A DNA stretch of 64,000 nucleotides from Escherichia phage KEP2: sequence record PP047752; one strand, written 5' to 3'. Shown piece by piece: positions 5,741 to 56,712 of the stretch (position 1 is the stretch's first letter; each line of letters starts with the position of its first letter). Below the pieces are notes generated by a model. It made no database searches and had not been told where the DNA came from. It saw only the letters and a program-made list of their open reading frames with translations. A program made the translations under genes and the position numbers.

Positions 5741-6916
5741 ATGGCAGTCGGTGAAATTCAAATTAGTGCCTTGCCACAAGCGGCCTTACCAGTTGATTTA
5801 AGTGATATCTTCCATCTTAAGCAAGGTGTTGAGGATAAAAGATGTACGCTTGAACAGTTGTTAGCACCTCACGCATCTTTGAGGAATAATCCTCATGGTG
5901 TAACCAAATCGCAAGTGGGTCTTGATAATGTTATTAACTCTCTTCAATTAGTTGCAGCTAATAACTTGTCAGACATTGTGAATGTTGCTGAGGCAAGAGC
6001 AAATCTACAAATTATGTCGTCAGAGGAAGTGAATAACTTAATTCAACAACATATTGACGACAAAAGTAACCCACACAATACGACGAAAGCACAGGTCGGT
6101 TTAAGTAATGTTCAGAACTGGACAACATCTAATCTGTACAATGAAGATGCTGATAAGTATGCTACCGCGAGAGCAGTGAATAATTTATACAAAGCTATCC
6201 AAGCATCATATCCAGTAGGGACTATTCATCTATCTGTTAATTCTGCTAACCCAGCCACTTACTTGCTTTGTGGAGGTACTTGGGAGTTAGTTTCTAGAGG
6301 TAGAGCACTAGTTGGTTATGATACAAATTCTAGACCTGTTGGTTCAACGTTTGGTTCTCAGACTGTAGTATTAACAAATAACAATTTACCAGCACATACT
6401 CACTCTATCTATCTAACAGGTGGTGGTCATACACACTCTGCAAGTGTATCTATCTCTAGTTTTGATTATGGTTCAAAGAGTACATCAACTTTTGACTATG
6501 GTACGAAGGCAACTAACAGTGCTGGTGCTCACACTCACACGTTTAGCGGCACGACAAGTAATGATGGTAACCATAACCATAGAGTACCACTGAGGGGTAA
6601 TGATAGAAGTGGGTCAAATGCTATTACTGCATCTGCTTATGCTGGGATTGATAATAATATGTATACTGATTTAGCAGGTGCTCACACCCATAGCTTCTCA
6701 GGCACAACTGCATCATCTGGTGCTCATAGTCATACTGTTGCAATTGGTGCTCATAGCCACACTGTTAATATTGGTTCACACAGTCATACGGGTACTGTTA
6801 CTGTCTCTAACTCTGAACATACACACTCAGGAACATCCGGTTCTGTTGGTGGTGGTCAAGCTTTCAGTGTTGAGCAGCCATCTTTTGTCGTATATGTATG
6901 GCAGAGAACAGCTTAA
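5741..6916 (+). CDS. tail fibre protein with N-terminal tail-fibre repeats and C-terminal HxH repeats
   Basis: Two copies of NPH..TK.QVGL.NV motif (phage tail-fibre repeat); C-terminal run of AHTHS/GAHSHT/HxH motifs typical of metal-binding fibre tips. Confidence 0.7.
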   Translation: MAVGEIQISALPQAALPVDLSDIFHLKQGVEDKRCTLEQLLAPHASLRNNPHGVTKSQVGLDNVINSLQLVAANNLSDIVNVAEARANLQIMSSEEVNNLIQQHIDDKSNPHNTTKAQVGLSNVQNWTTSNLYNEDADKYATARAVNNLYKAIQASYPVGTIHLSVNSANPATYLLCGGTWELVSRGRALVGYDTNSRPVGSTFGSQTVVLTNNNLPAHTHSIYLTGGGHTHSASVSISSFDYGSKSTSTFDYGTKATNSAGAHTHTFSGTTSNDGNHNHRVPLRGNDRSGSNAITASAYAGIDNNMYTDLAGAHTHSFSGTTASSGAHSHTVAIGAHSHTVNIGSHSHTGTVTVSNSEHTHSGTSGSVGGGQAFSVEQPSFVVYVWQRTA

Positions 6917-6926
6917 TTTCTTTACA

Positions 6927-6946
6927 GGGGCTTTGTAGCCCCTTTT
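6927..6946 (+). terminator. stem-loop GGGGCTttgtAGCCCC followed by TTTT, preceded by TTTACA
   Basis: Perfect 6-bp GC stem plus T-run between tail fibre genes; same GGGGCTT...AAGCCCC hairpin family as the downstream cassettes. Confidence 0.5.
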
Positions 6947-38491: not shown

Positions 38492-38762
38492 AGAGAAGTG
38501 GGAGATTCTACCATTAGTGAGTGAAGGTGGTAACGGCTGTGAGATGTACATGATACGTGGTCATGTCCCAGAACCAATTGCACTTGAGATGGTAAACAAT
38601 TTTACAGATGGCTCTTACAAAGATTTAGGAGAGCCAACTATAAAGCATCAATGGGTCAAACCTGTACCAGACAGCACAGGTAACTGTAGTGTACTTTATC
38701 ACGTTGTAGACCCTGCAAAATGCAAATCTGCAATGGCAGTAACAAACATAACCTTTGATTGA
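38457..38762 (+). CDS. hypothetical protein
   Basis: 101-aa ORF. Confidence 0.3.
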   Translation: MRQFIGQLTMAKEKWEILPLVSEGGNGCEMYMIRGHVPEPIALEMVNNFTDGSYKDLGEPTIKHQWVKPVPDSTGNCSVLYHVVDPAKCKSAMAVTNITFD

Positions 38763-38775
38763 GAGAGAGAAAACT

Positions 38776-39657
38776 ATGAAAACTGTTATTGAAGTCGTTG
38801 TCACCGCACAAGAGAAATTCTTCCACACAGAAAAATTTAATATCATCCAATTCCCATCTGGAGAAATTGGTGGAAACTTCTCTGAAGATTTTGTTAAGTT
38901 TACTGAGCGTAATGCTGGTAAGATTGACAATGTTATACTTACTGTGCAGGGATATGATAAAGATACACTGTTTGCATTAGCTTTGGCTAAGGATGCCATT
39001 GACAGCCTTGTTCCATATAAATCAGCGATGAAAACCGTTGTTTTCGGGTTCTTACCGAATGCTCGATATGACCGCCATATGTTCAAAGGCGATTCAGCAG
39101 CACTAAAAGCTTTTGCCAACCTCGTTAATGCAATGGGCTTTGATGCAGTATGTGCTCTTGACCCTCACAGTAATGTTGCAGAAAACTTATTTAAGTGCTT
39201 CCAAAGCATGAAGCAAAAAGATGTGGCAGTACACTTTGCAAGTGACCCACGCATTGATTTCTTGGTAGCCCCAGATGCAGGTGCAGCTAAGAAGACTGAA
39301 GAGACTGCTAAAGAGGTGGATAAACCATACATCACAATGTCTAAAGTACGTAACCTTAAGACTGGTGAAATTACTGGTATGCGAATCCTTGATGATGTTG
39401 ATTTGACCGATAAAACTGTCATGATTCTCGATGATATCTGTGATGGTGGTCGAACCTTCATAGAAGCAGCTAAACATCTTCGTGAAGCAGGTGCAAAACG
39501 TGTGGAACTCTATGTAACTCATGGCATTTTCTCTAAAGGTGTTGAAAACTTACTTGACAATGGTATTGACCATATCTACACTACAAACTCTTTAGGGGAA
39601 GCTAAAGACCGTGGCTTAACACATTATGCCCAAGTTACTGTAATTACCATTGATTGA
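38776..39657 (+). CDS. ribose-phosphate pyrophosphokinase (Prs) family protein; possibly ADPR-pyrophosphate synthetase
   Basis: Prs motifs: FPSGE, LPNARYDR, PRPP-binding loop MILDDICDGGRT, VTHGIFS; ORF-track start TTG re-called to ATG 38776. Confidence 0.75.
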   Translation: MKTVIEVVVTAQEKFFHTEKFNIIQFPSGEIGGNFSEDFVKFTERNAGKIDNVILTVQGYDKDTLFALALAKDAIDSLVPYKSAMKTVVFGFLPNARYDRHMFKGDSAALKAFANLVNAMGFDAVCALDPHSNVAENLFKCFQSMKQKDVAVHFASDPRIDFLVAPDAGAAKKTEETAKEVDKPYITMSKVRNLKTGEITGMRILDDVDLTDKTVMILDDICDGGRTFIEAAKHLREAGAKRVELYVTHGIFSKGVENLLDNGIDHIYTTNSLGEAKDRGLTHYAQVTVITID

Positions 39658-39666
39658 AACTTTATA

Positions 39667-39688
39667 GGGGGCTTCAAAGCCCCATTTT
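39667..39688 (+). promoter_or_regulatory. GGGGGCTTcaaAGCCCC stem-loop between Prs-like and NadV-like genes
   Basis: Same hairpin family as small-gene cassettes; interrupted T-run (ATTTTG), so attenuator or processing site rather than strong terminator. Confidence 0.35.
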
Positions 39689-39704
39689 GAGAGAGATTAA
39701 AAAG

Positions 39705-41486
39705 ATGACTAAATCACTTTATGCAGTACCAGCAGGTTTAAACGCGGATGCTTACAAATCTGGCCATATTTATCAGTATCCTAGTGCAACAGAGTACCTA
39801 ATGTTCAACCTGACACCACGTAGTGATAAATGGTTTAACAGCCCTTTAGCAATTGACGGTGTAGTTGCTTTTGGTATTCAACGTTTTGTTAAAGATTACC
39901 TGATAGACCACTGGAACGCCACCTTCTTCGAACGTGACAAAAAAGAAGCAATTGATGAAATCTTAGAAGTCATGAACGGCGTTCTGGGTAAAGATGCTAT
40001 TGGTCGAGAACATTGGGAAGCACTCCACGACTTAGGTTATCTACCAGTTGAAGTCTACGCTGTAGAAGAAGGTACAGTTGTCCCTATGCGTGTGCCAATG
40101 ATTGTCTTCCAGAACACTGTTTCAGGTTTCCATTGGGTAGCGGGGTATCTGGAAGATGCTTTCTCTGCTGAGATTTGGAAGGCTTGTACCATTGCAACTA
40201 TTGCATTGCACTACAAACGTATCTGTAAGAAGTGGGCTGACCTTACTTGTGACAACGACTTGCATTTACCTTATCAGTGCCATGACTTTGCTATGCGTGG
40301 TATGTCTGGCTTTACTGATGACGCATTTAACGCTGTAGGTCACTTAACCAGCTTTAAAGGAACTGACAGCTTCCCTGCTGTGTATACAGCTAAACGCATC
40401 TATGGACAGTCCTACCCAATCTCTGATATTGGTAGTTCTGTGCCAGCCACTGAACACTCTGTAATGTGTGCAAACATTGCTTGGGAAGGTGGTAATGAGT
40501 TAATTGAAGATGAAAGACGTTTTAAAGGTGAGTTACAAACCTTCCGTCGTTTCTTAACAGAAACTTACCCAACTGGTATTGCAAGTGTTGTTTCAGACAC
40601 TTATAACTTCTGGAGAACTGTATCAGTCATATTACCAGAACTCCGTAAAGAGATTATGGAACGTAATGGCAAACTAGTAATTCGTCCTGACTCTGGAGAC
40701 CCTGTACATATTGTCACAGGCTATAAAGCAATCCACTTAGAGTGTGCTAAAAAGGCTTATTACGAACACCTAAGCAAGCTGGAAGCCAGCGACACAATGT
40801 TGAATGCTGTTCTGAACATGAAGCTTGAAAACATCAATTATGGTATTGCTGGATGGCTATTGTCAGAAGGCTACGAAATAGTTGTTGACAGAGAAGACTT
40901 TGAAGTTGCTGATACAGTGCTGTTGAAAAATGCTTATATGGTTGGTTCTGCAAACGTTGTAACACGTCCTGTAGCGGAGATTGATGGAGCTATCAAGACA
41001 CTGTATAACATCTTTGGAGGAACTATCAACGCTAAAGGTTTTAAAGTACTGGATGAGCATATCGGACTTATTTATGGTGACTCTATCACGTTGGAACGTG
41101 CAAACGAAATACTGAAGCGTTTGTATGAAATGGGTTTTGCAAGCTCTAACGTAGTGTTTGGTGTAGGTTCTTATACTTACCAGTACATGACTCGTGACAC
41201 CTTTGCATTTGCTGTCAAAGCAACTCTTGCAAGCATTGGTGGTAAAGAGATTATGCTTGCAAAAGACCCTAAAACAGATAGCGGTGTTAAGAAGTCTGCT
41301 TTTGGTGGTGTAGCGCCCATGTGGGATGGTGATAAGCTGAAAGCTGTAGATGGCTATGGATTCCAGAGCTTTGCAGATGTGCTTGAACATCCAGCTTGTG
41401 CTTTACGTTTAGTCTTTAGTGACTCTGAGCAGTTCGGTTACACAACTCTTGGCGATATTCGAAATAATATTGACAAGCAGCTTTAA
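39705..41486 (+). CDS. nadV: nicotinamide phosphoribosyltransferase (NadV/NAMPT) family protein
   Basis: N-terminal ...NADAYKSGH... and overall size/pattern of NAMPT family; ATG with AGAGAGATTAAAAAG leader. Confidence 0.7.
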   Translation: MTKSLYAVPAGLNADAYKSGHIYQYPSATEYLMFNLTPRSDKWFNSPLAIDGVVAFGIQRFVKDYLIDHWNATFFERDKKEAIDEILEVMNGVLGKDAIGREHWEALHDLGYLPVEVYAVEEGTVVPMRVPMIVFQNTVSGFHWVAGYLEDAFSAEIWKACTIATIALHYKRICKKWADLTCDNDLHLPYQCHDFAMRGMSGFTDDAFNAVGHLTSFKGTDSFPAVYTAKRIYGQSYPISDIGSSVPATEHSVMCANIAWEGGNELIEDERRFKGELQTFRRFLTETYPTGIASVVSDTYNFWRTVSVILPELRKEIMERNGKLVIRPDSGDPVHIVTGYKAIHLECAKKAYYEHLSKLEASDTMLNAVLNMKLENINYGIAGWLLSEGYEIVVDREDFEVADTVLLKNAYMVGSANVVTRPVAEIDGAIKTLYNIFGGTINAKGFKVLDEHIGLIYGDSITLERANEILKRLYEMGFASSNVVFGVGSYTYQYMTRDTFAFAVKATLASIGGKEIMLAKDPKTDSGVKKSAFGGVAPMWDGDKLKAVDGYGFQSFADVLEHPACALRLVFSDSEQFGYTTLGDIRNNIDKQL

Positions 41487-41500
41487 AAGTATATGATAAG

Positions 41501-41525
41501 AGGCTCCTACGGGAGCCTTTTTAAT
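41501..41525 (+). terminator. intrinsic terminator
   Basis: AGGCTCC-tacg-GGAGCCT followed by TTTTTAATTT. Confidence 0.55.
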
Positions 41526-41539
41526 TTCTGGAGAAGATT

Positions 41540-41875
41540 ATGAAAATCAAAGAAATGAACATCAACATTGTCTTAGAAGAACGCTGGGAGAACATCAAGA
41601 AGCCTGAAAATGGTCATAAGTTCCTCAACAAAATCTTAGTAGCAGCTAAAGAAGAGCTGACTGGCAAGGTTGCAGCAGCAATCACAATAAAGGTGTGTGT
41701 AAAGGGTCTTCCAGACAATCACCAATTTGCACTTGACGAGTTTAAAGAAAGCTTCTACAATCCAAACAAACAGATGCTTGAAAGTAACTTTGCAGTGTCT
41801 ACAAGTATCGTCCATGACAGAAGCTTTATCCTTTACAAGAATATGAGAGGTGAGTCATGCAAGCATATTGGATAG
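41540..41875 (+). CDS. hypothetical protein
   Basis: 111-aa ORF. Confidence 0.3.
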   Translation: MKIKEMNINIVLEERWENIKKPENGHKFLNKILVAAKEELTGKVAAAITIKVCVKGLPDNHQFALDEFKESFYNPNKQMLESNFAVSTSIVHDRSFILYKNMRGESCKHIG

Positions 41876-42033
41876 AAATTTTACTGTCACTTGGTAGTGT
41901 AGCAGTGCTTGTTTACCTTCTTTGTAAGTACTTTGCAGAGAACAAAAAATGTGAATACTGCAACGGAGAGGGGTACATAAGGGCAGGTTGTTGCCCTATG
42001 TGTGGTGGTTCTGGTAAAATGTTTAATAAGTGA
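41857..42033 (+). CDS. small membrane-anchored protein with DnaJ-type zinc-finger repeats (58 aa)
   Basis: N-terminal hydrophobic helix then CEYCNGEG and CPMCGGSG (CxxCxGxG x2); below ORF-track size cut-off. Confidence 0.35.
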   Translation: MQAYWIEILLSLGSVAVLVYLLCKYFAENKKCEYCNGEGYIRAGCCPMCGGSGKMFNK

Positions 42034-42061
42034 TTTAAAAGAAAACTAAGAGGAAAGTATT

Positions 42062-44428
42062 ATGCGCATGGTAAACGACCACGCAGAAGTGATTAAGAGT
42101 TCAACTTCTTTAGAGACGTCTCAAGCACAGATTACAATGACGCCTGAAATGTTCAGTCTTTTGAGTTCTGGTGTATACACCTTTAAAGAAAGGGCAGTGA
42201 TTCGTGAACTGTCATGTAACGCAGTAGATGCTCAGAAAGAAGCTGGAAAAGAGAATATCCCGTTCCATGTGCATTTGCCTACTCGTTTTGAGCCTTACTT
42301 TGAAGTTCGTGATTTTGGAACTGGATTGACTCATGATAAAGTTATGAGTTTGTACCTAAACTATGGAGCTTCTACGAAGAATGACTCTAATGACTACATT
42401 GGTGCAATGGGTATCGGCTCAAAATCACCATTTGCAATTGCTCAGTCATTCACAGTGTCTAGCTATGTTGACGGTGTTGTTAATAAGTACTCTGTTTATC
42501 TTGAGAATGGTATCCCTCAAGTAACTAAACTGACCACTAACCCAACAAAAGAACCTAATGGTTTAGCTGTACGTGTAGCAGTTGCTGACCACCGTATCTC
42601 AAAGTTCTTTGAAGAAGCTGGTCATGTATACTCATACTTTGCTGTAAAACCAGAAAGTAATATCGAGTATGATGATGTATTAGCAGATATGAATGTCATT
42701 GCCCGTGAAGAAGGTGTTTATGATGCCATGATTCATAAGCAAAGCTGGCGTTCTAGTGGTAACAGGACAGAGTTTAACGTGGTAATGGGTAACATTGCCT
42801 ATCCAGTGAATATGGAAGCATTACTTGGTGATGATTTCTTCAAAGTATTGCCAGAATTTTTCCGTAGGAGCGTAGACCTTGTAAACATATACATGCCTAT
42901 TGGTTCAGTTGCTATCGCAGCTTCTCGTGAAGCATTGCAGATGAATGACACGACAAAAAATGTTATCATCGAGGCTACTAAAAAGATAACTGAAGCAATT
43001 ACAAAGGATGTTATCAAGAAAGTTAACAGTCAACCTACACTCATGGATGCTGCACAGGCTTATGCTGAGTTACGTTTGAACTCACGAGAGATGTTTAATG
43101 CTGTGTGTCCAAAGCTAGAGTGGGGAGGCGTTAAGCTTGATTCTCTGGAAGAAGAATTACTAAACATTCGTCGTGGAATTATCTACGCAGAAGACGGCTC
43201 AGTCATCTATGAACGTGACGGCAAAGGTAATATTAAGGTTGATAGGAACGGAAACAACATCCCTAAAGTAGATTATCTTTATAATCCAGTTGCTTATGTT
43301 AAGTTCAACTCTTTAGAGAGTAAGATTCGTGCAACATCGCTTTCCTACACTCAAGAGGCAAGTATGTTCAATATCTTTGGCGCAATGCGTAAAAGCCAAA
43401 TTGAACAGTTTTTGTTTGTTATAAATGACCGTCGCAATAAAAACGGCACTGAGAAGACTGTAGGACGCAACCAGATTCTACGTGGTGCATGTCGAGACTA
43501 TGCCAGCGAGTCAAGTCTGTTTCACAGATACAATGGTATTGTCTTTGTATTCTCTACTGAGAAAGAGCTAGATGATTTAATCAATCTGCACAAACTTGAT
43601 AAAAGCTTGTTAAAGATTGTGAAGATGTCTGATAAGGAACATCATTATCAGCGTAAAGAAGCTGTAAGAGGTGTTGTAAAACTCTGGAAAGCTGTTCCAG
43701 CAGAAGGTGTAGCTTCATACAAAGAGGTGTCAGAAGACTTAGATACGATTGAAGAGCCTCAGCTTTATATTAAGGCAGTAGGTGACACAGTTGATGGCGA
43801 ATGTTTTTGCTCATCTCCAGAAGATGTAGCTAAGTCAGTTGCCAATGTCATTGAAAAGACAGTCTATGTTTTCCGAAAAGCAAATTGGAAAAAGATACCA
43901 GAAGACTGGATTGAAGTAGATGAGAAGCTCTTGAACGACAGCTTAACTGATGTTCACTGGATTAATCATAACAGGTATATGACACGTATCTATATGAATG
44001 GTGTCCTTGACCTTACAAGCAGTTGGATTATTGCCAGAAACTTTACGTTCAATAACAGGAAGATTTCTCGTGGTTATTGTTATTCACGAGATACAAACAA
44101 AACTATCTTCTTAGAAGGTAATGAAGATACTGTTGAGGCAATGTTTGGTAAAATCCAATACGTTGCTGCACCGTTTGCATACACTTACACTATTAGCGTG
44201 TTGCAAGATTTGAAAAGGTGTCTTGACAATGATACAAAGCTTTACAAGAAAATTAAGAAAGCTGGTGACCGTATGGTCATTAAGGTGACAAACTATCTTT
44301 CAAAAAGAAAACAAGAAAACTTCTTGCTTTCTCATTTAGATTGGAATAAAGTGTCACCCATCGAAGTGAGTAAGTTCTTAGGCTTTGATGTGAAGTGTGT
44401 TCCAGAAGGGACTACAATTTACGATTAA
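42062..44428 (+). CDS. rIIA: rIIA-like protein with GHKL (Bergerat-fold) ATPase domain
   Basis: N-box ELSCNAVDA, G1 box VRDFGTGLT, G2 box GAMGIGSKS; 788 aa, followed by rIIB-sized gene. Confidence 0.55.
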   Translation: MRMVNDHAEVIKSSTSLETSQAQITMTPEMFSLLSSGVYTFKERAVIRELSCNAVDAQKEAGKENIPFHVHLPTRFEPYFEVRDFGTGLTHDKVMSLYLNYGASTKNDSNDYIGAMGIGSKSPFAIAQSFTVSSYVDGVVNKYSVYLENGIPQVTKLTTNPTKEPNGLAVRVAVADHRISKFFEEAGHVYSYFAVKPESNIEYDDVLADMNVIAREEGVYDAMIHKQSWRSSGNRTEFNVVMGNIAYPVNMEALLGDDFFKVLPEFFRRSVDLVNIYMPIGSVAIAASREALQMNDTTKNVIIEATKKITEAITKDVIKKVNSQPTLMDAAQAYAELRLNSREMFNAVCPKLEWGGVKLDSLEEELLNIRRGIIYAEDGSVIYERDGKGNIKVDRNGNNIPKVDYLYNPVAYVKFNSLESKIRATSLSYTQEASMFNIFGAMRKSQIEQFLFVINDRRNKNGTEKTVGRNQILRGACRDYASESSLFHRYNGIVFVFSTEKELDDLINLHKLDKSLLKIVKMSDKEHHYQRKEAVRGVVKLWKAVPAEGVASYKEVSEDLDTIEEPQLYIKAVGDTVDGECFCSSPEDVAKSVANVIEKTVYVFRKANWKKIPEDWIEVDEKLLNDSLTDVHWINHNRYMTRIYMNGVLDLTSSWIIARNFTFNNRKISRGYCYSRDTNKTIFLEGNEDTVEAMFGKIQYVAAPFAYTYTISVLQDLKRCLDNDTKLYKKIKKAGDRMVIKVTNYLSKRKQENFLLSHLDWNKVSPIEVSKFLGFDVKCVPEGTTIYD

Positions 44429-44433
44429 AGTGT

Positions 44434-44463
44434 TTGACAAGGGGCTTCAAAGCCCCTTAGAAT
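44434..44463 (+). promoter_or_regulatory. promoter with palindromic spacer: TTGACA-aGGGGCTTcaaAGCCCCt-TAGAAT
   Basis: -35 TTGACA 44434-44439, 18-nt spacer forming hairpin, TAGAAT 44458-44463; same architecture as small-gene cassettes. Confidence 0.45.
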
Positions 44464-44507
44464 AGCCTTACAAAATGATTTATTAACTAACAAGAGAGAG
44501 TAATAAG

Positions 44508-45617
44508 ATGACTACTAAAACTAAAGCACAGATTGACGCAGAAATTTACAAACTGGTTAAAGAAGGTAAGCTGACTAAAACAGCTATTGCACAGAAGTTC
44601 AATACTTCAACCCGTTCAGTTGGTCGTGCTGTAGAGCGTCATGAAGCAACCTTAAAAGGTAAGAAAAAGGCAACTTCTAAGCCAGCTAAGAAGACTCTAA
44701 AGCAAGTTGCTAAGTCAGTTAAAAAGAAAGCTGGAAAACCAGTTGAAAAGGTTGTTAAAGACACTGTACAGAAAGTTCCAGTAAATAAACTGCATGAAGC
44801 TATGCAGAAAGATGACAAGATTGAGTACATGATTACTGGTGACTCTGTAATTATGACTTACGGTTCAGAATCTGAAATTGTTGAGTCTACTCATCCGAAC
44901 TATCAAGAGATTGTAGTTCATGTTGTGAAAGGTGAGTTCAAGAAAGCTTTCGAACTGATGAACATTCGTAAATCTATCGAAAACTTCACTCAGGGTGCTA
45001 TCACAATCAAAGGTGACAAGCTATTCTACGGTGCTGTTGAGATGCGTTCTACTCTGGTTGACCGTATCCTTCACATGATGAAGACTGGTGATAAAGGTTT
45101 TGAACGACTTGTAATGTTCTTCGAAAAACTGATGGAAAACCCATCTAAAGATTCTGTAGAACAACTTTGGGGATTCGTATCTCACCTTGATGTTGAAATT
45201 GATGAAGAGGGTTACATCATTGGTTGGAAGAAAGTCTCTACTCGTGAAGGCAAGCTGGTTGACTCTCACACCTACAAAGTACCTAATGATTTGGGTAACA
45301 TTGTAGAGATGCCACGTTGGATGGTTGATAACAACCGTAACGTGACTTGCTCTCAGGGTCTTCATGTTGGTGCTTGGGATTATGTTCGTTGCTTCTCAGG
45401 TGATACAATCCTGAAGGTTCGTGTCCATCCACGAGATGTTGTATCTGTTCCGACTGATTACAACGATATGAAGATGCGTTCATCCCGTTATGAAGTTGCA
45501 GCAATCGTTGATAATCAACGTAAAGTGCTGGAAGCATGGGATGGTAAGACTGAAGCTTTGCATGTCATCGTTGGCACTGCTGGAGAACTCATCTCCCAAC
45601 GTAAACGTGAAATCTAA
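44508..45617 (+). CDS. rIIB: rIIB-like protein
   Basis: Assigned mainly by position after rIIA-like gene and size (369 aa). Confidence 0.4.
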   Translation: MTTKTKAQIDAEIYKLVKEGKLTKTAIAQKFNTSTRSVGRAVERHEATLKGKKKATSKPAKKTLKQVAKSVKKKAGKPVEKVVKDTVQKVPVNKLHEAMQKDDKIEYMITGDSVIMTYGSESEIVESTHPNYQEIVVHVVKGEFKKAFELMNIRKSIENFTQGAITIKGDKLFYGAVEMRSTLVDRILHMMKTGDKGFERLVMFFEKLMENPSKDSVEQLWGFVSHLDVEIDEEGYIIGWKKVSTREGKLVDSHTYKVPNDLGNIVEMPRWMVDNNRNVTCSQGLHVGAWDYVRCFSGDTILKVRVHPRDVVSVPTDYNDMKMRSSRYEVAAIVDNQRKVLEAWDGKTEALHVIVGTAGELISQRKREI

Positions 45618-45632
45618 TAAGTAATTTCTTAA

Positions 45633-45660
45633 AAGGCTGCTTCGGCGGCCTTTTTTATTT
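45633..45660 (+). terminator. intrinsic terminator
   Basis: AGGCTGC-ttcg-GCGGCCT followed by TTTTTTATTT. Confidence 0.5.
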
Positions 45661-45717
45661 GTATTTTGTGCAGAGTGCTGTATAATTGTTGTCACGATAA
45701 ACTAAACAGGAGAACCA

Positions 45718-46266
45718 ATGAAGAAGTTGATTCTAGGTTTGTGCTTAATGTTTACAGCACACTTATCTTATGCAGTTGACTGCCCAGAGCTATCAATTAG
45801 CCAAAAAGTAAACATGCTAAAAGCTTACCAGTATGGTGAGAATAATATGGGTAAAGGTTGGGGTATCACTCTAGCTGCTATAGCCTTACAAGAGTCAGAG
45901 TTAGGTCTGAAGGTAGAGAATAAAAAGACCCATGACTATGGTATTTTCCAGAATCACTTGAAGACTGTTGTAAAGCGTAACAAAATCAGTCCTAATGTGG
46001 CTAAAAAGAAACTCTTAAAAGATTTTGACTATGCTGCAAAGGAAACACACAAAGAGCTTGAGTTTTGGGCGAAGGTACATGGTCAACCAAAGTCAAAGAA
46101 GACTTTACAAAAAGTTTTAGCATCATATAATGCTGGGTATTCGTACAAAATACCTAAAGCTAAGAAATACTCTCAAGATGTCTATAACAATATGAAAGTT
46201 ATTGCTCAATGTGAATTTGCAACAAACATTTCTAAGGTAAATCATGAAAAAATTAAGAAAGTCTGA
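45718..46266 (+). CDS. secreted protein, possible lytic transglycosylase-like
   Basis: Signal peptide MKKLILGLCLMFTAHLSYA; ALQESELG ... DYGIFQ resembles SLT catalytic ES...GLMQ pattern; weak. Confidence 0.35.
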   Translation: MKKLILGLCLMFTAHLSYAVDCPELSISQKVNMLKAYQYGENNMGKGWGITLAAIALQESELGLKVENKKTHDYGIFQNHLKTVVKRNKISPNVAKKKLLKDFDYAAKETHKELEFWAKVHGQPKSKKTLQKVLASYNAGYSYKIPKAKKYSQDVYNNMKVIAQCEFATNISKVNHEKIKKV

Positions 46267-46939
46267 TGAAGTACTGTGTCATGCTTACGACTTGCATCCT
46301 CATGAGTTAGGTCTTGATTCCTGTGTATGGACTCCAGAACAGTGCAGGGATTTTGAAGATACTGCAAGAGAAGTTGTATGTTCACTTGAAGAGTTCCACA
46401 CATCAGAACCAATTGTGAACGTTGTGGACAAAGAGACTGTACAATCTATAGGTGTAAGACGTGACAGCTTAGTCATAGTCAATAAAGACCTTGTAGAAAA
46501 AGGTAACCTTATCTTAGCAGACATTGATGGTGTTCTTACAAATTTTAATCACGAAGATTACTCCACAGAGTTGACTGATGGGTCATTTTCGCAGTACACT
46601 AATCTTCTTGACTCTGTAAGAGCAAAACCAACGTATGTTTTTAGTATTATTGATGCAATTGCTAATCATGCTGCCATTGGACTCTTGACAGCAAGAGGTG
46701 AATCTCAGAGAATACCTACTGAGATGTTTTTAAGGCATAACATAGAGCATGACTACATGCTTTTTATGCGTGGTTTTGGAACTAACTCTATAAGTGCAGA
46801 AAGTTTGAAAGTCAGGATGATTCAGTCTTGCATTCTGCCTTACTTTAATATAGTATGTTTTATAGAAGATACAGAGAAGAATGTTCAGAAGGTAAACCGA
46901 ATCCTTCCACACATTAAAACCATGTTAGTTAAACATTGA
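46244..46939 (+). CDS. hypothetical protein, possible HAD-like hydrolase
   Basis: ILADIDGVL resembles HAD motif I (DxDGxL) but lies ~90 aa from N-terminus. Confidence 0.3.
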   Translation: MKKLRKSDEVLCHAYDLHPHELGLDSCVWTPEQCRDFEDTAREVVCSLEEFHTSEPIVNVVDKETVQSIGVRRDSLVIVNKDLVEKGNLILADIDGVLTNFNHEDYSTELTDGSFSQYTNLLDSVRAKPTYVFSIIDAIANHAAIGLLTARGESQRIPTEMFLRHNIEHDYMLFMRGFGTNSISAESLKVRMIQSCILPYFNIVCFIEDTEKNVQKVNRILPHIKTMLVKH

Positions 46940-54218: not shown

Positions 54219-54312
54219 TTGACACGGATTTTTAGATAGATTAAATTACGCATTAACGGGGAGGGAATGAACTTCCCCACTAAATAAAGTCCTTAAACTA
54301 GGAGATTCTAGA
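54219..54312 (+). promoter_or_regulatory. variant cassette (copy g) with explicit TTGACA-17-TAAATT promoter
   Basis: TTGACA 54219-54224, TAAATT 54242-54247, then GGGGAGGGaatgaaCTTCCCC hairpin and CCTTAAACTAGGAGATTCTAGAATG leader. Confidence 0.5.
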
Positions 54313-56113: not shown

Positions 56114-56644
56114 ATGAACAAATTTCAAGCTATCAATTACATCCGCTCAAATAGTGTTATGTCAAAGCCTGTTAAAGACACCTATGAATTTCGTTGCAAT
56201 GGTGTACACTTTGCAACCATCACCAAATCAGAAAACGGGGCTTATTACGTTCATCGCCGTAATGTTGCAACCGTTGTAGTCTCTCACTTTATGCAAGCTG
56301 TCGCGGAACTTCTCCCGATGTTTTTAGGGCTTTACTTAGATGAGTGTAAGCACATTCATAACCATGTTAAAAGCCTTTTAAACGGTTATAAAATGGCTTA
56401 TGAGCGTTCTATCAAGTCCTTAAACAAGTTTTACAACGCACCTGAAAACACCGTATCAATGGCATACGCTGTAAAGGGTGAGGCGGTGAGTCTCTTCGAA
56501 GTGGAAGAAATCGAGCTTTATGACCATCGCCCCAATGGTTACGCTAAAACTCTCGGTGAAGGTTTAACGTTCAATATCAAGAACTTAGAAAAAACTTTAA
56601 AAGATATTGAAAAAGATATTGACGAGACAATCAAAAGTCTGTAA
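56114..56644 (+). CDS. early-type protein (array gene 13)
   Basis: 176 aa. Confidence 0.45.
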   Translation: MNKFQAINYIRSNSVMSKPVKDTYEFRCNGVHFATITKSENGAYYVHRRNVATVVVSHFMQAVAELLPMFLGLYLDECKHIHNHVKSLLNGYKMAYERSIKSLNKFYNAPENTVSMAYAVKGEAVSLFEVEEIELYDHRPNGYAKTLGEGLTFNIKNLEKTLKDIEKDIDETIKSL

Positions 56645-56649
56645 ATTGT

Positions 56650-56712
56650 CAATCAACGGGGAGGGAATGACCTTCCCCACTAAATAAAGTCCTTAAACTA
56701 GGAGATTCTAAA
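56650..56712 (+). promoter_or_regulatory. variant cassette (copy l)
   Basis: TTGTCAATCAACGGGGAGGGaatgaCCTTCCCCACTAAATAAAGTCCTTAAACTAGGAGATTCTAAAATG. Confidence 0.45.

What the first reader, a model, noticed from the sequence alone, without database searches (positions are those of the whole stretch)
42062..45617. rIIA-like GHKL ATPase with rIIB-like partner
The 788-aa protein has a complete Bergerat ATPase signature (N-box E..NA.DA, G1 D.G.G, G2 G..G.G.) and is followed by a 369-aa gene, matching rIIA/rIIB organisation. The rII proteins are membrane-associated factors long linked to escape from prophage-encoded exclusion (RexAB) with still unclear biochemistry. A hairpin-spacer promoter (44434-44463) sits between the two genes.
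Basis: partly seen in the sequence, partly recalled or inferred. Interest (0 to 1): 0.45.

Follow-up and report, generated by a model that had tools for sequence, protein, structure and literature searches.

The report
rIIA/rIIB genes of Felix O1-like phage
These two genes are the ordinary, already annotated rIIA/rIIB pair of a Felix O1-like enterobacterial phage.

Summary
ORFs 42062-44428 (788 aa) and 44508-45617 (369 aa) exist, and the 788-aa protein carries all Bergerat ATP-binding motifs (E49-x3-N53-x2-D56, D84-x-G-x-G88, G114-x2-G-x-G119), which are invariant in 64 homologues including T4. A TTGACA-18-TAGAAT promoter-like site with a 7-bp hairpin in its spacer lies between the genes.

PHROG profiles give rIIA at 6e-189 and rIIB at 4e-89. 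Direct BLASTP to T4 gives rIIA 3e-37 (32% identity, N-terminal 300 aa only) and rIIB 2e-60 (38%).

The window is a Felixounavirus. 276 phage records match, most at 90-97% identity, and most of those listed annotate the genes as rIIA/rIIB. The proteins are 98% and 83% identical to Bas63 gp84/gp85, whose deletion lowers plating 10^4-10^5-fold on QatABCD. rII knockdown in the related SUSP1 sensitises that phage to lambda RexAB.

Modelling shows rIIA is an Hsp90/MORC-like two-domain GHL ATPase plus a variable C-terminal region. rIIB is a sigma-region-4-like HTH, a Lys-rich disordered linker and a conserved core with no solved relative. Neither protein has a membrane-spanning segment.

The intergenic hairpin is one of three copies of a recurrent post-stop-codon hairpin, here overlapped by rIIB's own promoter.

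Verdict: already known, low interest.

The parts
41470..41497 (+). Promoter-like site (TTGACA, 16-nt spacer, TATGAT) at the head of the four-gene unit that contains rIIA
   Evidence: It matches 11 of 12 consensus positions. It sits directly before the terminator hairpin of the preceding nadV gene. Its function is inferred, not shown.
41498..41521 (+). Intrinsic-terminator-like hairpin plus T-run that closes the upstream NAD-salvage genes
   Evidence: It has a 10-bp stem with 5 GC pairs, followed by TTTTTAATTT.
41540..41875 (+). 111-aa protein of unknown function, first gene of the unit
   Evidence: It matches phrog_4262 at 1.7e-68. It is syntenic in Bas63 (g82, 94% identity) and SUSP2 (67% identity).
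41857..42033 (+). 58-aa protein with an N-terminal membrane helix and a C-terminal CxxC...CCPxCGG zinc ribbon, immediately upstream of rIIA
   Evidence: It matches phrog_3931 at 2e-32 and has a weak DnaJ_CXXCXGXG hit. Its maximum Kyte-Doolittle 19-residue hydropathy is 2.16. It is syntenic in Bas63 and SUSP2. Any functional link to rII is speculative.
42062..44428 (+). rIIA, 788 aa. Residues ~25-200 (42134-42661) are the GHKL ATP-binding domain. Residues ~201-330 (42662-43051) are a transducer-like domain carrying the invariant ASRE motif (R289/E290, 42920-42931). Residues 331-788 (43052-44425) are a lineage-variable C-terminal region. N-box at 42206-42229, G1 at 42311-42325, G2 at 42401-42418.
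44434..44463 (+). Sigma-70-type promoter-like site for rIIB: TTGACA at 44434-44439 and TAGAAT at 44458-44463. Its 18-nt spacer (44440-44457) is a 7-bp/4-nt-loop hairpin lying 12 nt after the rIIA stop codon.
   Evidence: It was found. It is conserved in three Ounavirinae genera with a variable loop. It is annotated 'promoter' in NC_028825. The same hairpin occurs after two other stop codons, at 6927 and 39668.
44508..45617 (+). rIIB, 369 aa. Residues 1-52 (44508-44663) are a sigma-region-4/LuxR-like HTH. Residues 53-92 (44664-44783) are a Lys-rich disordered linker. Residues 93-335 (44784-45512) are the conserved rIIB core (invariant C281, G284, H286). Residues 336-369 (45513-45614) are a variable tail.
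45631..45654 (+). Intrinsic-terminator-like hairpin plus T-run that closes the rII unit
   Evidence: It has a 10-bp stem with 5 GC pairs, followed by TTTTTTATTT.

Best explanation
This is the rIIA-rIIB pair of a Felixounavirus (a Felix O1-like myovirus of Enterobacteriaceae). It is an early-expressed, two-protein counter-defence module that stops host or prophage abortive-infection systems from killing the infected cell.

Shown here:
- Both proteins are orthologues of T4 rIIA and rIIB.
- rIIA has an Hsp90/MORC-like two-domain GHL ATPase module with every ATP-binding and catalytic residue conserved, followed by a variable C-terminal region.
- rIIB has a sigma-region-4-like HTH, a Lys-rich disordered linker and a conserved core with no solved relative.
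- Neither protein has a membrane-spanning segment.
- Natural rIIA-rIIB fusions exist in other phages.
- The genes sit in a unit bounded by two terminators. It has one sigma-70-type promoter at its head and a second one, overlapping a post-stop hairpin, directly before rIIB.

Taken from papers:
- Deleting either orthologue in Bas63 (98% and 83% identical) drops plating 10^4-10^5-fold on QatABCD.
- Knocking down either gene in SUSP1 (same subfamily) sensitises that phage to lambda RexAB.
- T6 rIIB alone is toxic and triggers a CARD/gasdermin system.

Inferred:
- rIIA and rIIB act as one complex in which ATP binding closes an rIIA dimer clamp, as in Hsp90, MORC and MutL.
- rIIB's HTH and polylysine linker tether the complex to DNA (or another polyanionic surface).
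- The complex thereby masks or remodels the infection-specific signal, probably a replication or recombination DNA-protein intermediate, that RexA-type and Qat-type sensors read.
- The intergenic hairpin acts as a leaky terminator or 3'-end stabiliser for rIIA mRNA. The overlapping promoter gives rIIB extra, independent transcription.
For: Identity:
- PHROG matches are 6e-189 (rIIA) and 4e-89 (rIIB).
- BLASTP to T4 gives 3e-37 and 2e-60.
- 276 phage records match. Most are 90-97% identical, and most of those listed annotate the genes as rIIA/rIIB.
- Synteny with Bas63 and SUSP2 is complete.

ATPase:
- E49, N53, D56, D84, G86, G114, G117, G119, K121, R289 and E290 are invariant in 63-64 homologues.
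- HATPase_c or HATPase_c_3 is detected in 22 and 18 of 63 members.
- The family profile hits the TRAP1/Hsp90 N-domain at 6e-5, including the pre-N-box helix.

rIIB HTH:
- HTH Pfam families hit up to 25 of 56 members, with E down to 9e-12.

One functional unit:
- RB43 carries a 1049-aa rIIA-rIIB fusion.
- phrog_609 is matched by rIIA at profile positions 31-299 and by rIIB at positions 755-1048.
- Both genes are co-essential in the published screens.

Not integral-membrane: maximum KD19 is 1.29 for rIIA and 0.69 for rIIB.

Regulatory cassette.

Phenotypes: bioRxiv 10.1101/2024.10.10.617714, PMC11879866, bioRxiv 10.1101/2023.05.28.542683 and bioRxiv 10.1101/2025.11.20.689424.
Against: - No experiment was done on this exact phage.
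- Its rIIB allele is only 83% identical to the Bas63 allele that was tested.
- The molecular mechanism of rII is unsolved. I found no ATPase activity, complex formation or DNA binding reported in the papers searched.
- The classical T4 literature places rII proteins in membrane fractions. The published models put the action at the membrane, by blocking RexB- or QatB-mediated depolarisation. A Lys-rich linker could bind anionic lipid as well as DNA.
- The hairpin stem is invariant, so there is no covariation to prove an RNA structure.
- With flanks, the RNA fold z-score is only -1.67.
- The T-tract after the hairpin is only 2 T long, so termination may be negligible.
Confidence: 0.9

Rival explanations
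1. The historical label is literally true. On this view rIIA/rIIB are 'membrane integrity protectors / lysis inhibitors' that work at the inner membrane. They would directly prevent the depolarisation caused by RexB-like or QatB-like membrane effectors, or delay lysis, and would not act on a DNA-level trigger.
For: PHROG and GenBank label them 'lysis inhibitor' or 'membrane integrity protector'. The published models for RexAB and QatABCD place the action at membrane depolarisation. rIIB has a polybasic linker that could bind anionic phospholipid. A small membrane-anchored zinc-ribbon protein is encoded 28 nt upstream of rIIA and is syntenic across genera. It could serve as a membrane anchor.
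Against: Neither protein has a transmembrane-grade hydrophobic stretch, in this phage or in T4. rIIA's fold is that of soluble ATP-driven clamps, and most of its closest structural matches act on chromatin or DNA: MORC, SMCHD1, Topo VI-B and MutL. rIIB begins with a DNA-binding-type HTH that is conserved family-wide. From general knowledge, T4 lysis inhibition proper depends on rI, rIII and the holin, not on rII.
Confidence: 0.3
2. rIIB is an independent specific transcription factor that down-modulates phage transcription according to host state, as proposed by Iyer et al. 2021. On this view rIIA is a separate ATPase with its own role.
For: rIIB has a sigma-region-4/LuxR-type HTH at its N-terminus. 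It is classed as a specific transcription factor in PMC7824862. The palindrome lying in rIIB's own promoter spacer could in principle be an autoregulatory operator.
Against: Natural rIIA-rIIB fusions exist. Loss-of-function phenotypes of the two genes are identical in T4, Bas63, SUSP1 and others. The largest and best-conserved part of rIIB is the non-HTH core. The same palindrome occurs after two unrelated stop codons, followed by T-tracts and with no promoter hexamers at promoter spacing. That fits an RNA hairpin better than an operator.
Confidence: 0.1
3. The 788-aa protein is really a topoisomerase B-subunit, a MutL-type repair protein or an Hsp90 chaperone rather than rIIA.
Against: All those similarities cover only the shared GHL module, about 250-350 residues at 11-15% identity. 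No Toprim, MutL C-terminal, Hsp90 middle/C-terminal or CW domain is detected. The full-length best match is rIIA at 6e-189. The partner gene is rIIB, not a topoisomerase A subunit.
Confidence: 0.02
4. The intergenic palindrome is a protein-binding operator, or simply a terminator. On this view the flanking hexamers are not a working promoter and rIIB is expressed only by read-through from the upstream promoter.
For: The stem is invariant, so no compensatory change supports an RNA structure over a DNA palindrome. The region holds 23 consensus promoter-like sites against 11.8 expected, so many are noise. The Tribble record annotates terminators about 100 nt upstream and none at this site.
Against: The -35 and -10 hexamers match 11 of 12 positions and are invariant across three genera. 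The spacing changes only from 18 to 17 nt, which stays inside the functional range, while the flanks diverge. The other two copies of the hairpin lack a -10 hexamer at promoter spacing and keep a T-tract instead. This suggests the hexamers here were added under selection. From general knowledge, T4 rIIB also has its own promoters.
Confidence: 0.15

Closest known systems
Bas63 (Escherichia phage JohannRWettstein, MZ501086) gp84 rIIA and gp85 rIIB
   Same: It belongs to the same genus and has the same gene order from prs/nadV to the polynucleotide kinase. rIIA is 98% identical and rIIB is 83% identical. The intergenic promoter/hairpin is base-for-base identical. Deleting either gene lowers plating 10^4-10^5-fold on QatABCD.
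   Different: The 3' half of rIIB differs. Nucleotide identity falls to 62-83% and the C-terminal tail is only 37.5% identical. The window carries the common Felixounavirus allele (a cluster of 1018 members at 97% identity), whereas an allele at Bas63's level of identity (83%) forms a cluster of only 39 members.
T4 rIIA (NP_049616) and rIIB (NP_049889), the type members
   Same: Both proteins are homologous to the T4 pair (3e-37 and 2e-60). The gene order is rIIA then rIIB on one strand. The Bergerat motifs match, and the rIIB architecture is the same N-terminal HTH plus core. Neither has a TM segment.
   Different: Identity is only ~30% (rIIA) and ~40% (rIIB). The rIIA similarity is confined to the N-terminal ~300 residues. 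rIIB here has a 40-residue Lys-rich linker and a 30-residue C-terminal tail that T4 lacks. The '>80% homology to T4' stated in the PhageMaP preprint is not borne out.
SUSP1/SUSP2 (Suspvirus, Ounavirinae) rIIA/rIIB
   Same: They belong to the same subfamily and show the same synteny and the same promoter/hairpin cassette. SUSP1 rII knockdown sensitises the phage to lambda RexAB.
   Different: rIIA is only 68% identical: 91% in the GHKL domain and 55-66% beyond it. rIIB is 85% identical. I compared SUSP2, not the tested SUSP1.
GHL ATPases: Hsp90/TRAP1, MORC2/3, SMCHD1, Topo VI-B, MutL
   Different: Identity is 11-15%. None of their partner domains is detected (Toprim, MutL-C endonuclease, Hsp90 middle/C-terminal, CW or coiled coil). 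rIIA has its own 450-residue C-terminal region, for which no Pfam or PHROG family other than rIIA was found.
RB43 rIIA-rIIB fusion protein (Q56C47, 1049 aa; phrog_609)
   Same: It contains both modules in one chain. The window's rIIA matches the N-terminal end of phrog_609 and rIIB matches the C-terminal end.
   Different: In this phage the two are separate genes, 79 nt apart, with a promoter and hairpin between them.

Membership tests
rIIA (T4 rIIA family, phrog_612) | Significant sequence similarity to T4 rIIA and the family profile | tested here: met
   phrog_612 matches at 6e-189 over residues 1-770. BLASTP to T4 rIIA gives 3e-37 at 32% identity over residues 24-317.
rIIA (T4 rIIA family, phrog_612) | N-terminal GHKL (Bergerat) ATP-binding domain with intact motifs, followed by a variable C-terminal region (Iyer et al. 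2021) | tested here: met
rIIA (T4 rIIA family, phrog_612) | Adjacent co-directional rIIB gene | tested here: met
   rIIB starts 79 nt downstream on the same strand. T4 has the same arrangement.
rIIA/rIIB functional class | Dispensable on naive hosts but required on hosts carrying RexAB-type or other abortive-infection systems | not testable with these tools
   This was shown for orthologues only: Bas63 on QatABCD, and SUSP1, T4, N4 and others on RexAB.
rIIA/rIIB functional class | Membrane association, from classical T4 biochemistry | tested here: inconclusive
   No TM-grade segment is predicted: maximum KD19 is 1.29 and 0.69 here, and 1.18 and 0.89 in T4. Peripheral association cannot be judged from sequence.
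rIIB (T4 rIIB family, phrog_609/3803, Pfam PF26926) | Significant similarity to T4 rIIB and the family profile, with the conserved core motif (TCSxGLHVxxxxY) | tested here: met
   phrog_609 matches at 4e-89. T4 rIIB matches at 2e-60 and 38% identity. C281, G284 and H286 are invariant. Close homologues carry PF26926. The 32 significant BFVD hits are annotated rIIB or unnamed.
rIIB (T4 rIIB family) | N-terminal helix-turn-helix domain | tested here: met
Type II topoisomerase B subunit / MutL / Hsp90 chaperone | GHL module plus the family-specific partner domains (Toprim; MutL C-terminal dimerisation/endonuclease domain; Hsp90 middle and C-terminal domains) | tested here: not met
   The GHL module is present. 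No partner domain is detected in the window protein or in 63 family members. The NCBIfam HSP90 hit is 42.5 bits against a 455-bit cutoff.
ADP-ribosyltransferase fold (considered for the rIIB core) | Split beta-sheet ART fold with an H-Y-E or R-S-E catalytic triad | tested here: inconclusive

The most novel reading that the evidence does not exclude
The rII pair may not be a membrane protector at all. It may be a nucleoid- or DNA-associated ATP-driven clamp, made of an Hsp90/MORC-like rIIA together with an rIIB that carries a sigma-region-4-type HTH and a polylysine tether. Such a clamp would hide replication or recombination intermediates from DNA-sensing abortive-infection systems such as RexA and Qat. 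The conserved rIIB core, which has no solved relative and only faint ADP-ribosyltransferase-like resemblance, would be a new enzymatic or decoy domain. Its 3' half is being swapped between Ounavirinae genera, possibly under pressure from defences that sense rIIB itself, as the CARD/gasdermin system does in T6.
Probability: 0.25. Interest if true: 0.55.

Novelty: already known. Interest (0 to 1): 0.12.

Why it matters
rII is a historic locus used by Benzer and by Crick and Brenner, and its biochemical mechanism is still unsolved. It is now known to counter at least two abortive-infection systems (RexAB and QatABCD) and to be sensed by a third (CARD/gasdermin).

This window adds no new member or variant. 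The genes are annotated in most of the closest phage records, and near-identical orthologues have been knocked out. Its practical value is confirmation and tidy anatomy:
- an intact, presumably active GHL ATPase;
- an HTH plus polybasic linker on rIIB;
- no membrane-spanning segment;
- natural fusions that argue for one complex;
- a compact terminator-hairpin/promoter cassette between the genes.

These points sharpen which experiments would finally test whether rII works on DNA or on the membrane: ATPase-dead mutants, HTH/linker deletions and localisation.

Tried and rejected
1. Pfam on the window proteins gave nothing significant for rIIA and only a sub-threshold HTH for rIIB. The local Pfam copy lacks PF26926, so PHROGs and direct comparison with T4 were decisive instead.
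2. A single-sequence search of PDB sequences found nothing for rIIA and only noise for rIIB. The rIIA family profile reached only Hsp90/TRAP1 N-domains.
3. Contingency-locus idea (homopolymer tracts in rII, as reported for T4 rIIA in bioRxiv 10.1101/2025.10.21.683753): rIIA has one A6 tract (42955-42960) against ~1.9 expected at the window's density. rIIB has none, despite its Lys-rich linker. Rejected.
4. Known RNA family in the intergenic region or terminators: no Rfam match near any gathering score.
5. Operator hypothesis for the spacer palindrome: made less likely by the two other copies, which sit after unrelated stop codons and are followed by T-tracts.
7. PADLOC: only a GHKL-domain hit to TmtA at 1.4e-8 and noise, so the pair is not a defence system.
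9. Model coordinates are not exposed. The idea that R289 in ASRE is the transducer-domain residue contacting the gamma-phosphate could not be checked.


Full report
**Observation.** The window is about 38% G+C, and the positive GC skew across this stretch agrees with + strand coding. The minus-strand ORFs inside the region are short, 53-114 aa, and I did not pursue them. The 788-aa protein carries the Bergerat motifs:
- The N-box is RELSCNAVDA, with the canonical spacing E49-x3-N53-x2-D56.
- The G1 box is D84-F-G-T-G88.
- The G2 box is G114-A-M-G-I-G119.

In a 64-sequence alignment that spans 22-68% identity and includes T4 rIIA, the residues E49, N53, D56, D84, G86, G114, G117, G119 and K121 are invariant. 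So is a second motif, A-S-R289-E290.

**What it is.** PHROG profiles identify rIIA (phrog_612, 6e-189, full length) and rIIB (phrog_609, 4e-89; phrog_3803, 1e-49). I fetched the T4 type genes and compared them directly.
- rIIA is 32% identical over residues 24-317 (E = 3e-37), with no detectable similarity beyond that.
- rIIB is 38% identical over residues 63-339 (E = 2e-60).

Megablast of 41500-46300 finds 276 phage records, with 214 at 90-99% identity. They are overwhelmingly Escherichia, Salmonella and Shigella phages of the genus Felixounavirus, and most of those listed annotate the two genes as rIIA/rIIB. The window is therefore a Felix O1-like myovirus, and the finding restates an existing annotation.

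**Experimental evidence in orthologues (from papers).**
- Bas63 (JohannRWettstein, MZ501086) is a Felixounavirus with identical synteny: prs, nadV, a 111-aa ORF, a 58-aa membrane protein, rIIA, rIIB, a phrog_600 protein and a polynucleotide kinase. Its rIIA is 98% identical and its rIIB 83% identical to the window's proteins, and the intergenic region is identical.
- PhageMaP reports that deleting either Bas63 gene lowers plating 10^4-10^5-fold on QatABCD, and that complementation restores it (bioRxiv 10.1101/2024.10.10.617714).
- CRISPRi-ART reports that knocking down rIIA or rIIB in T4, MM02, EdH4, SUSP1 (Ounavirinae) and N4 has no effect without Rex but lowers plating on lambda RexAB (PMC11879866).
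- HIDEN-SEQ confirms conditional essentiality in T4 and flags the rII orthologues of Bas37 on clinical isolates.
- T6 rIIB alone is toxic and triggers a Lysobacter CARD/gasdermin system (bioRxiv 10.1101/2023.05.28.542683).
- Iyer et al. [quoted passage not shown]

One discrepancy: the PhageMaP text says the Bas63 proteins share more than 80% homology with T4 rIIA/B. The measured values for the window's near-identical proteins are about 30% and 40%.

**Anatomy of rIIA.** The AF2 model has mean pLDDT 86.8, and only residues 1-24 are disordered.
- The aligned lengths show that residues ~25-330 form a GHKL domain plus a transducer-type domain. This is the same span that is conserved with T4.
- By sequence, the family profile reaches only Hsp90/TRAP1/HtpG N-domains (6e-5). 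That match includes the Hsp90-type helix before the N-box.
- No Toprim, MutL-C or Hsp90-C domain is found in the window protein or in 63 relatives.
- Residues 331-788 fold confidently in the model, but no Pfam or PHROG family other than rIIA was found for this part. They are the fast-evolving part, 55-62% identical to SUSP2 against 91% for the GHKL domain.
- I infer, but could not check without coordinates, that R289 in the invariant ASRE motif plays the role of the transducer-domain Lys/Arg that contacts the gamma-phosphate in GyrB, MutL and Hsp90.

**Anatomy of rIIB.** The AF2 model has mean pLDDT 86.1.
- Residues 53-92 are a disordered Lys-rich linker, with 15 K/R in 42 residues and pI 10.6.
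- In the viral structure library, none of the 32 significant matches carries any annotation other than rIIB or a synonym, though several have no name. They come from T4-like, N4-like, phiW-14-like, Caulobacter and cyanobacterial phages, and one is the 1049-aa rIIA-rIIB fusion of RB43. That fusion explains why rIIA and rIIB both hit phrog_609, at profile positions 31-299 and 755-1048 respectively. It is Rosetta-stone evidence that the two proteins work as one unit.
- Neither protein has a transmembrane-grade hydrophobic stretch, here or in T4.

**The intergenic element.** TTGACA (44434-44439), an 18-nt spacer and TAGAAT (44458-44463) match 11 of 12 consensus positions. The spacer AGGGGCT-TCAA-AGCCCCT is a perfect hairpin of -11.6 kcal/mol, unique among the window's promoter-like spacers.
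- Across Felixounavirus, Suspvirus and Mooglevirus the hexamers and the stem are invariant. The loop varies (TCAA, TTGA, GCAA, GAAA), the spacer changes from 18 to 17 nt, and the flanks diverge.
- AYO145A annotates the site as a promoter.
- The pattern GGGGCT-N4-AGCCCC occurs three times in the window against 0.35 expected. Every copy lies 10-12 nt after a stop codon, at 6916, 39657 and 44428. The other two copies are followed by TTTT and have no -10 hexamer at promoter spacing.
- My reading is that this is a recurrent 3'-end RNA hairpin, acting as a terminator or stabiliser. At the rIIA/rIIB junction it is overlapped by a promoter, and its T-tract is replaced by the -10 hexamer. That arrangement would allow read-through and also independent initiation for rIIB. 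This is an inference. The stem never varies, so covariation is uninformative, and the RNA fold z-score with flanks is only -1.67. Rfam has no match.
- The whole unit runs from a promoter-like site at 41470-41497, through the 111-aa and 58-aa ORFs, rIIA and rIIB, to a strong terminator at 45631-45654.

**How it most likely works.**
- Shown here: homology, domains, conserved catalytic residues, the existence of fusions, and the lack of TM segments.
- From papers: the genes are conditionally essential on RexAB and QatABCD, and rIIB is sensed by a gasdermin system.
- Inferred: rIIA dimerises on ATP binding like other GHL clamps. rIIB tethers the complex through its HTH and polylysine linker to DNA or another polyanion. 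The complex then removes or masks the infection signal that RexA-type and Qat-type systems sense. [quoted passage not shown]
- The main rival is the traditional membrane-level model, which these data do not exclude.

**Side observations.**
- Against Bas63, rIIA is 92-97% identical in DNA but 98% in protein, which indicates strong purifying selection. The 3' half of rIIB falls to 62-83% DNA identity.
- The window's rIIB tail (residues 336-369) is 79% identical to SUSP2, a different genus, but only 37.5% identical to Bas63, the same genus. rIIA shows the opposite pattern, 68% against 98%. The 3' part of rIIB is therefore mosaic across Ounavirinae.
- No homopolymer enrichment was found.

**Verdict.** The feature is already known: it is annotated in most of the closest records, and near-identical orthologues have been tested. 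Interest is low.

Noticed in passing
window 6927-6942, 39668-39683, 44441-44456: A recurrent hairpin, GGGGCT-N4-AGCCCC, has two copies that are identical 16-mers. There are three exact pattern matches against 0.35 expected. Each lies 10-12 nt after a stop codon. Two are followed by TTTT, and the third is embedded in the rIIB promoter spacer. It looks like a phage-specific intercistronic terminator or stabiliser module.
   Followed up: partly
window 41470-41521; also (-) 63368-63300, (-) 61300-61240, (+) 54219-54290, (+) 56619-56690: Near-consensus sigma-70-type promoters sit immediately upstream of terminator-like hairpins, so a transcript would start inside or just before the hairpin. This promoter-then-stem-loop arrangement resembles the promoter/stem-loop cassettes described in T4-type phages. 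The resemblance is recalled from memory and was not tested.
   Followed up: no
window 45150-45617 (3' half of rIIB): This part of rIIB is mosaic or fast-evolving. DNA identity to same-genus Bas63 falls to 62-83% here, while the flanking genes are 90-99% identical. The C-terminal tail (residues 336-369) is 79% identical to the rIIB of SUSP2, a different genus, but only 37.5% identical to that of Bas63. Homologue clusters show a continuum of rIIB alleles from 97% to 78% identity, whereas Felixounavirus rIIA forms one 90% cluster.
   Followed up: partly
window 41857-42033: A 58-aa protein with an N-terminal transmembrane helix and a C-terminal DnaJ-like CxxC...CCPxCGG zinc ribbon is encoded 28 nt upstream of rIIA. 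It is syntenic in Bas63 (91% identity) and SUSP2 (48% identity, cysteines conserved). It is a possible membrane anchor for the rII proteins, which themselves lack TM segments. This is untested.
   Followed up: partly
window 38755-41486: Ribose-phosphate pyrophosphokinase and nicotinamide phosphoribosyltransferase genes (NAD salvage) lie directly upstream. Their Bas63 orthologues, g79 and g80, are reported to counter Sir2-HerA. The stretch 38.7-45.6 kb is therefore a cluster of counter-defence genes. The mechanical ORF 39654-41486 (TTG start) overlaps the hairpin at 39668. The real start is probably the ATG at 39706, as annotated in Bas63.
   Followed up: partly
literature: bioRxiv 10.1101/2024.10.10.617714, section on qatABCD: The preprint states that Bas63 g84/g85 share more than 80% sequence homology with T4 RIIA/B. 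Direct comparison of the near-identical window proteins with T4 gives about 30% (rIIA, N-terminal part only) and about 40% (rIIB).
   Followed up: yes
window 45718-46266: A 182-aa protein just downstream of the rII terminator has a signal-peptide-like N-terminus and a sub-threshold SLT lytic transglycosylase hit (phrog_600, function unknown). It is annotated 'putative lysin' or 'lytic transglycosylase domain-containing protein' in a few records.
   Followed up: no
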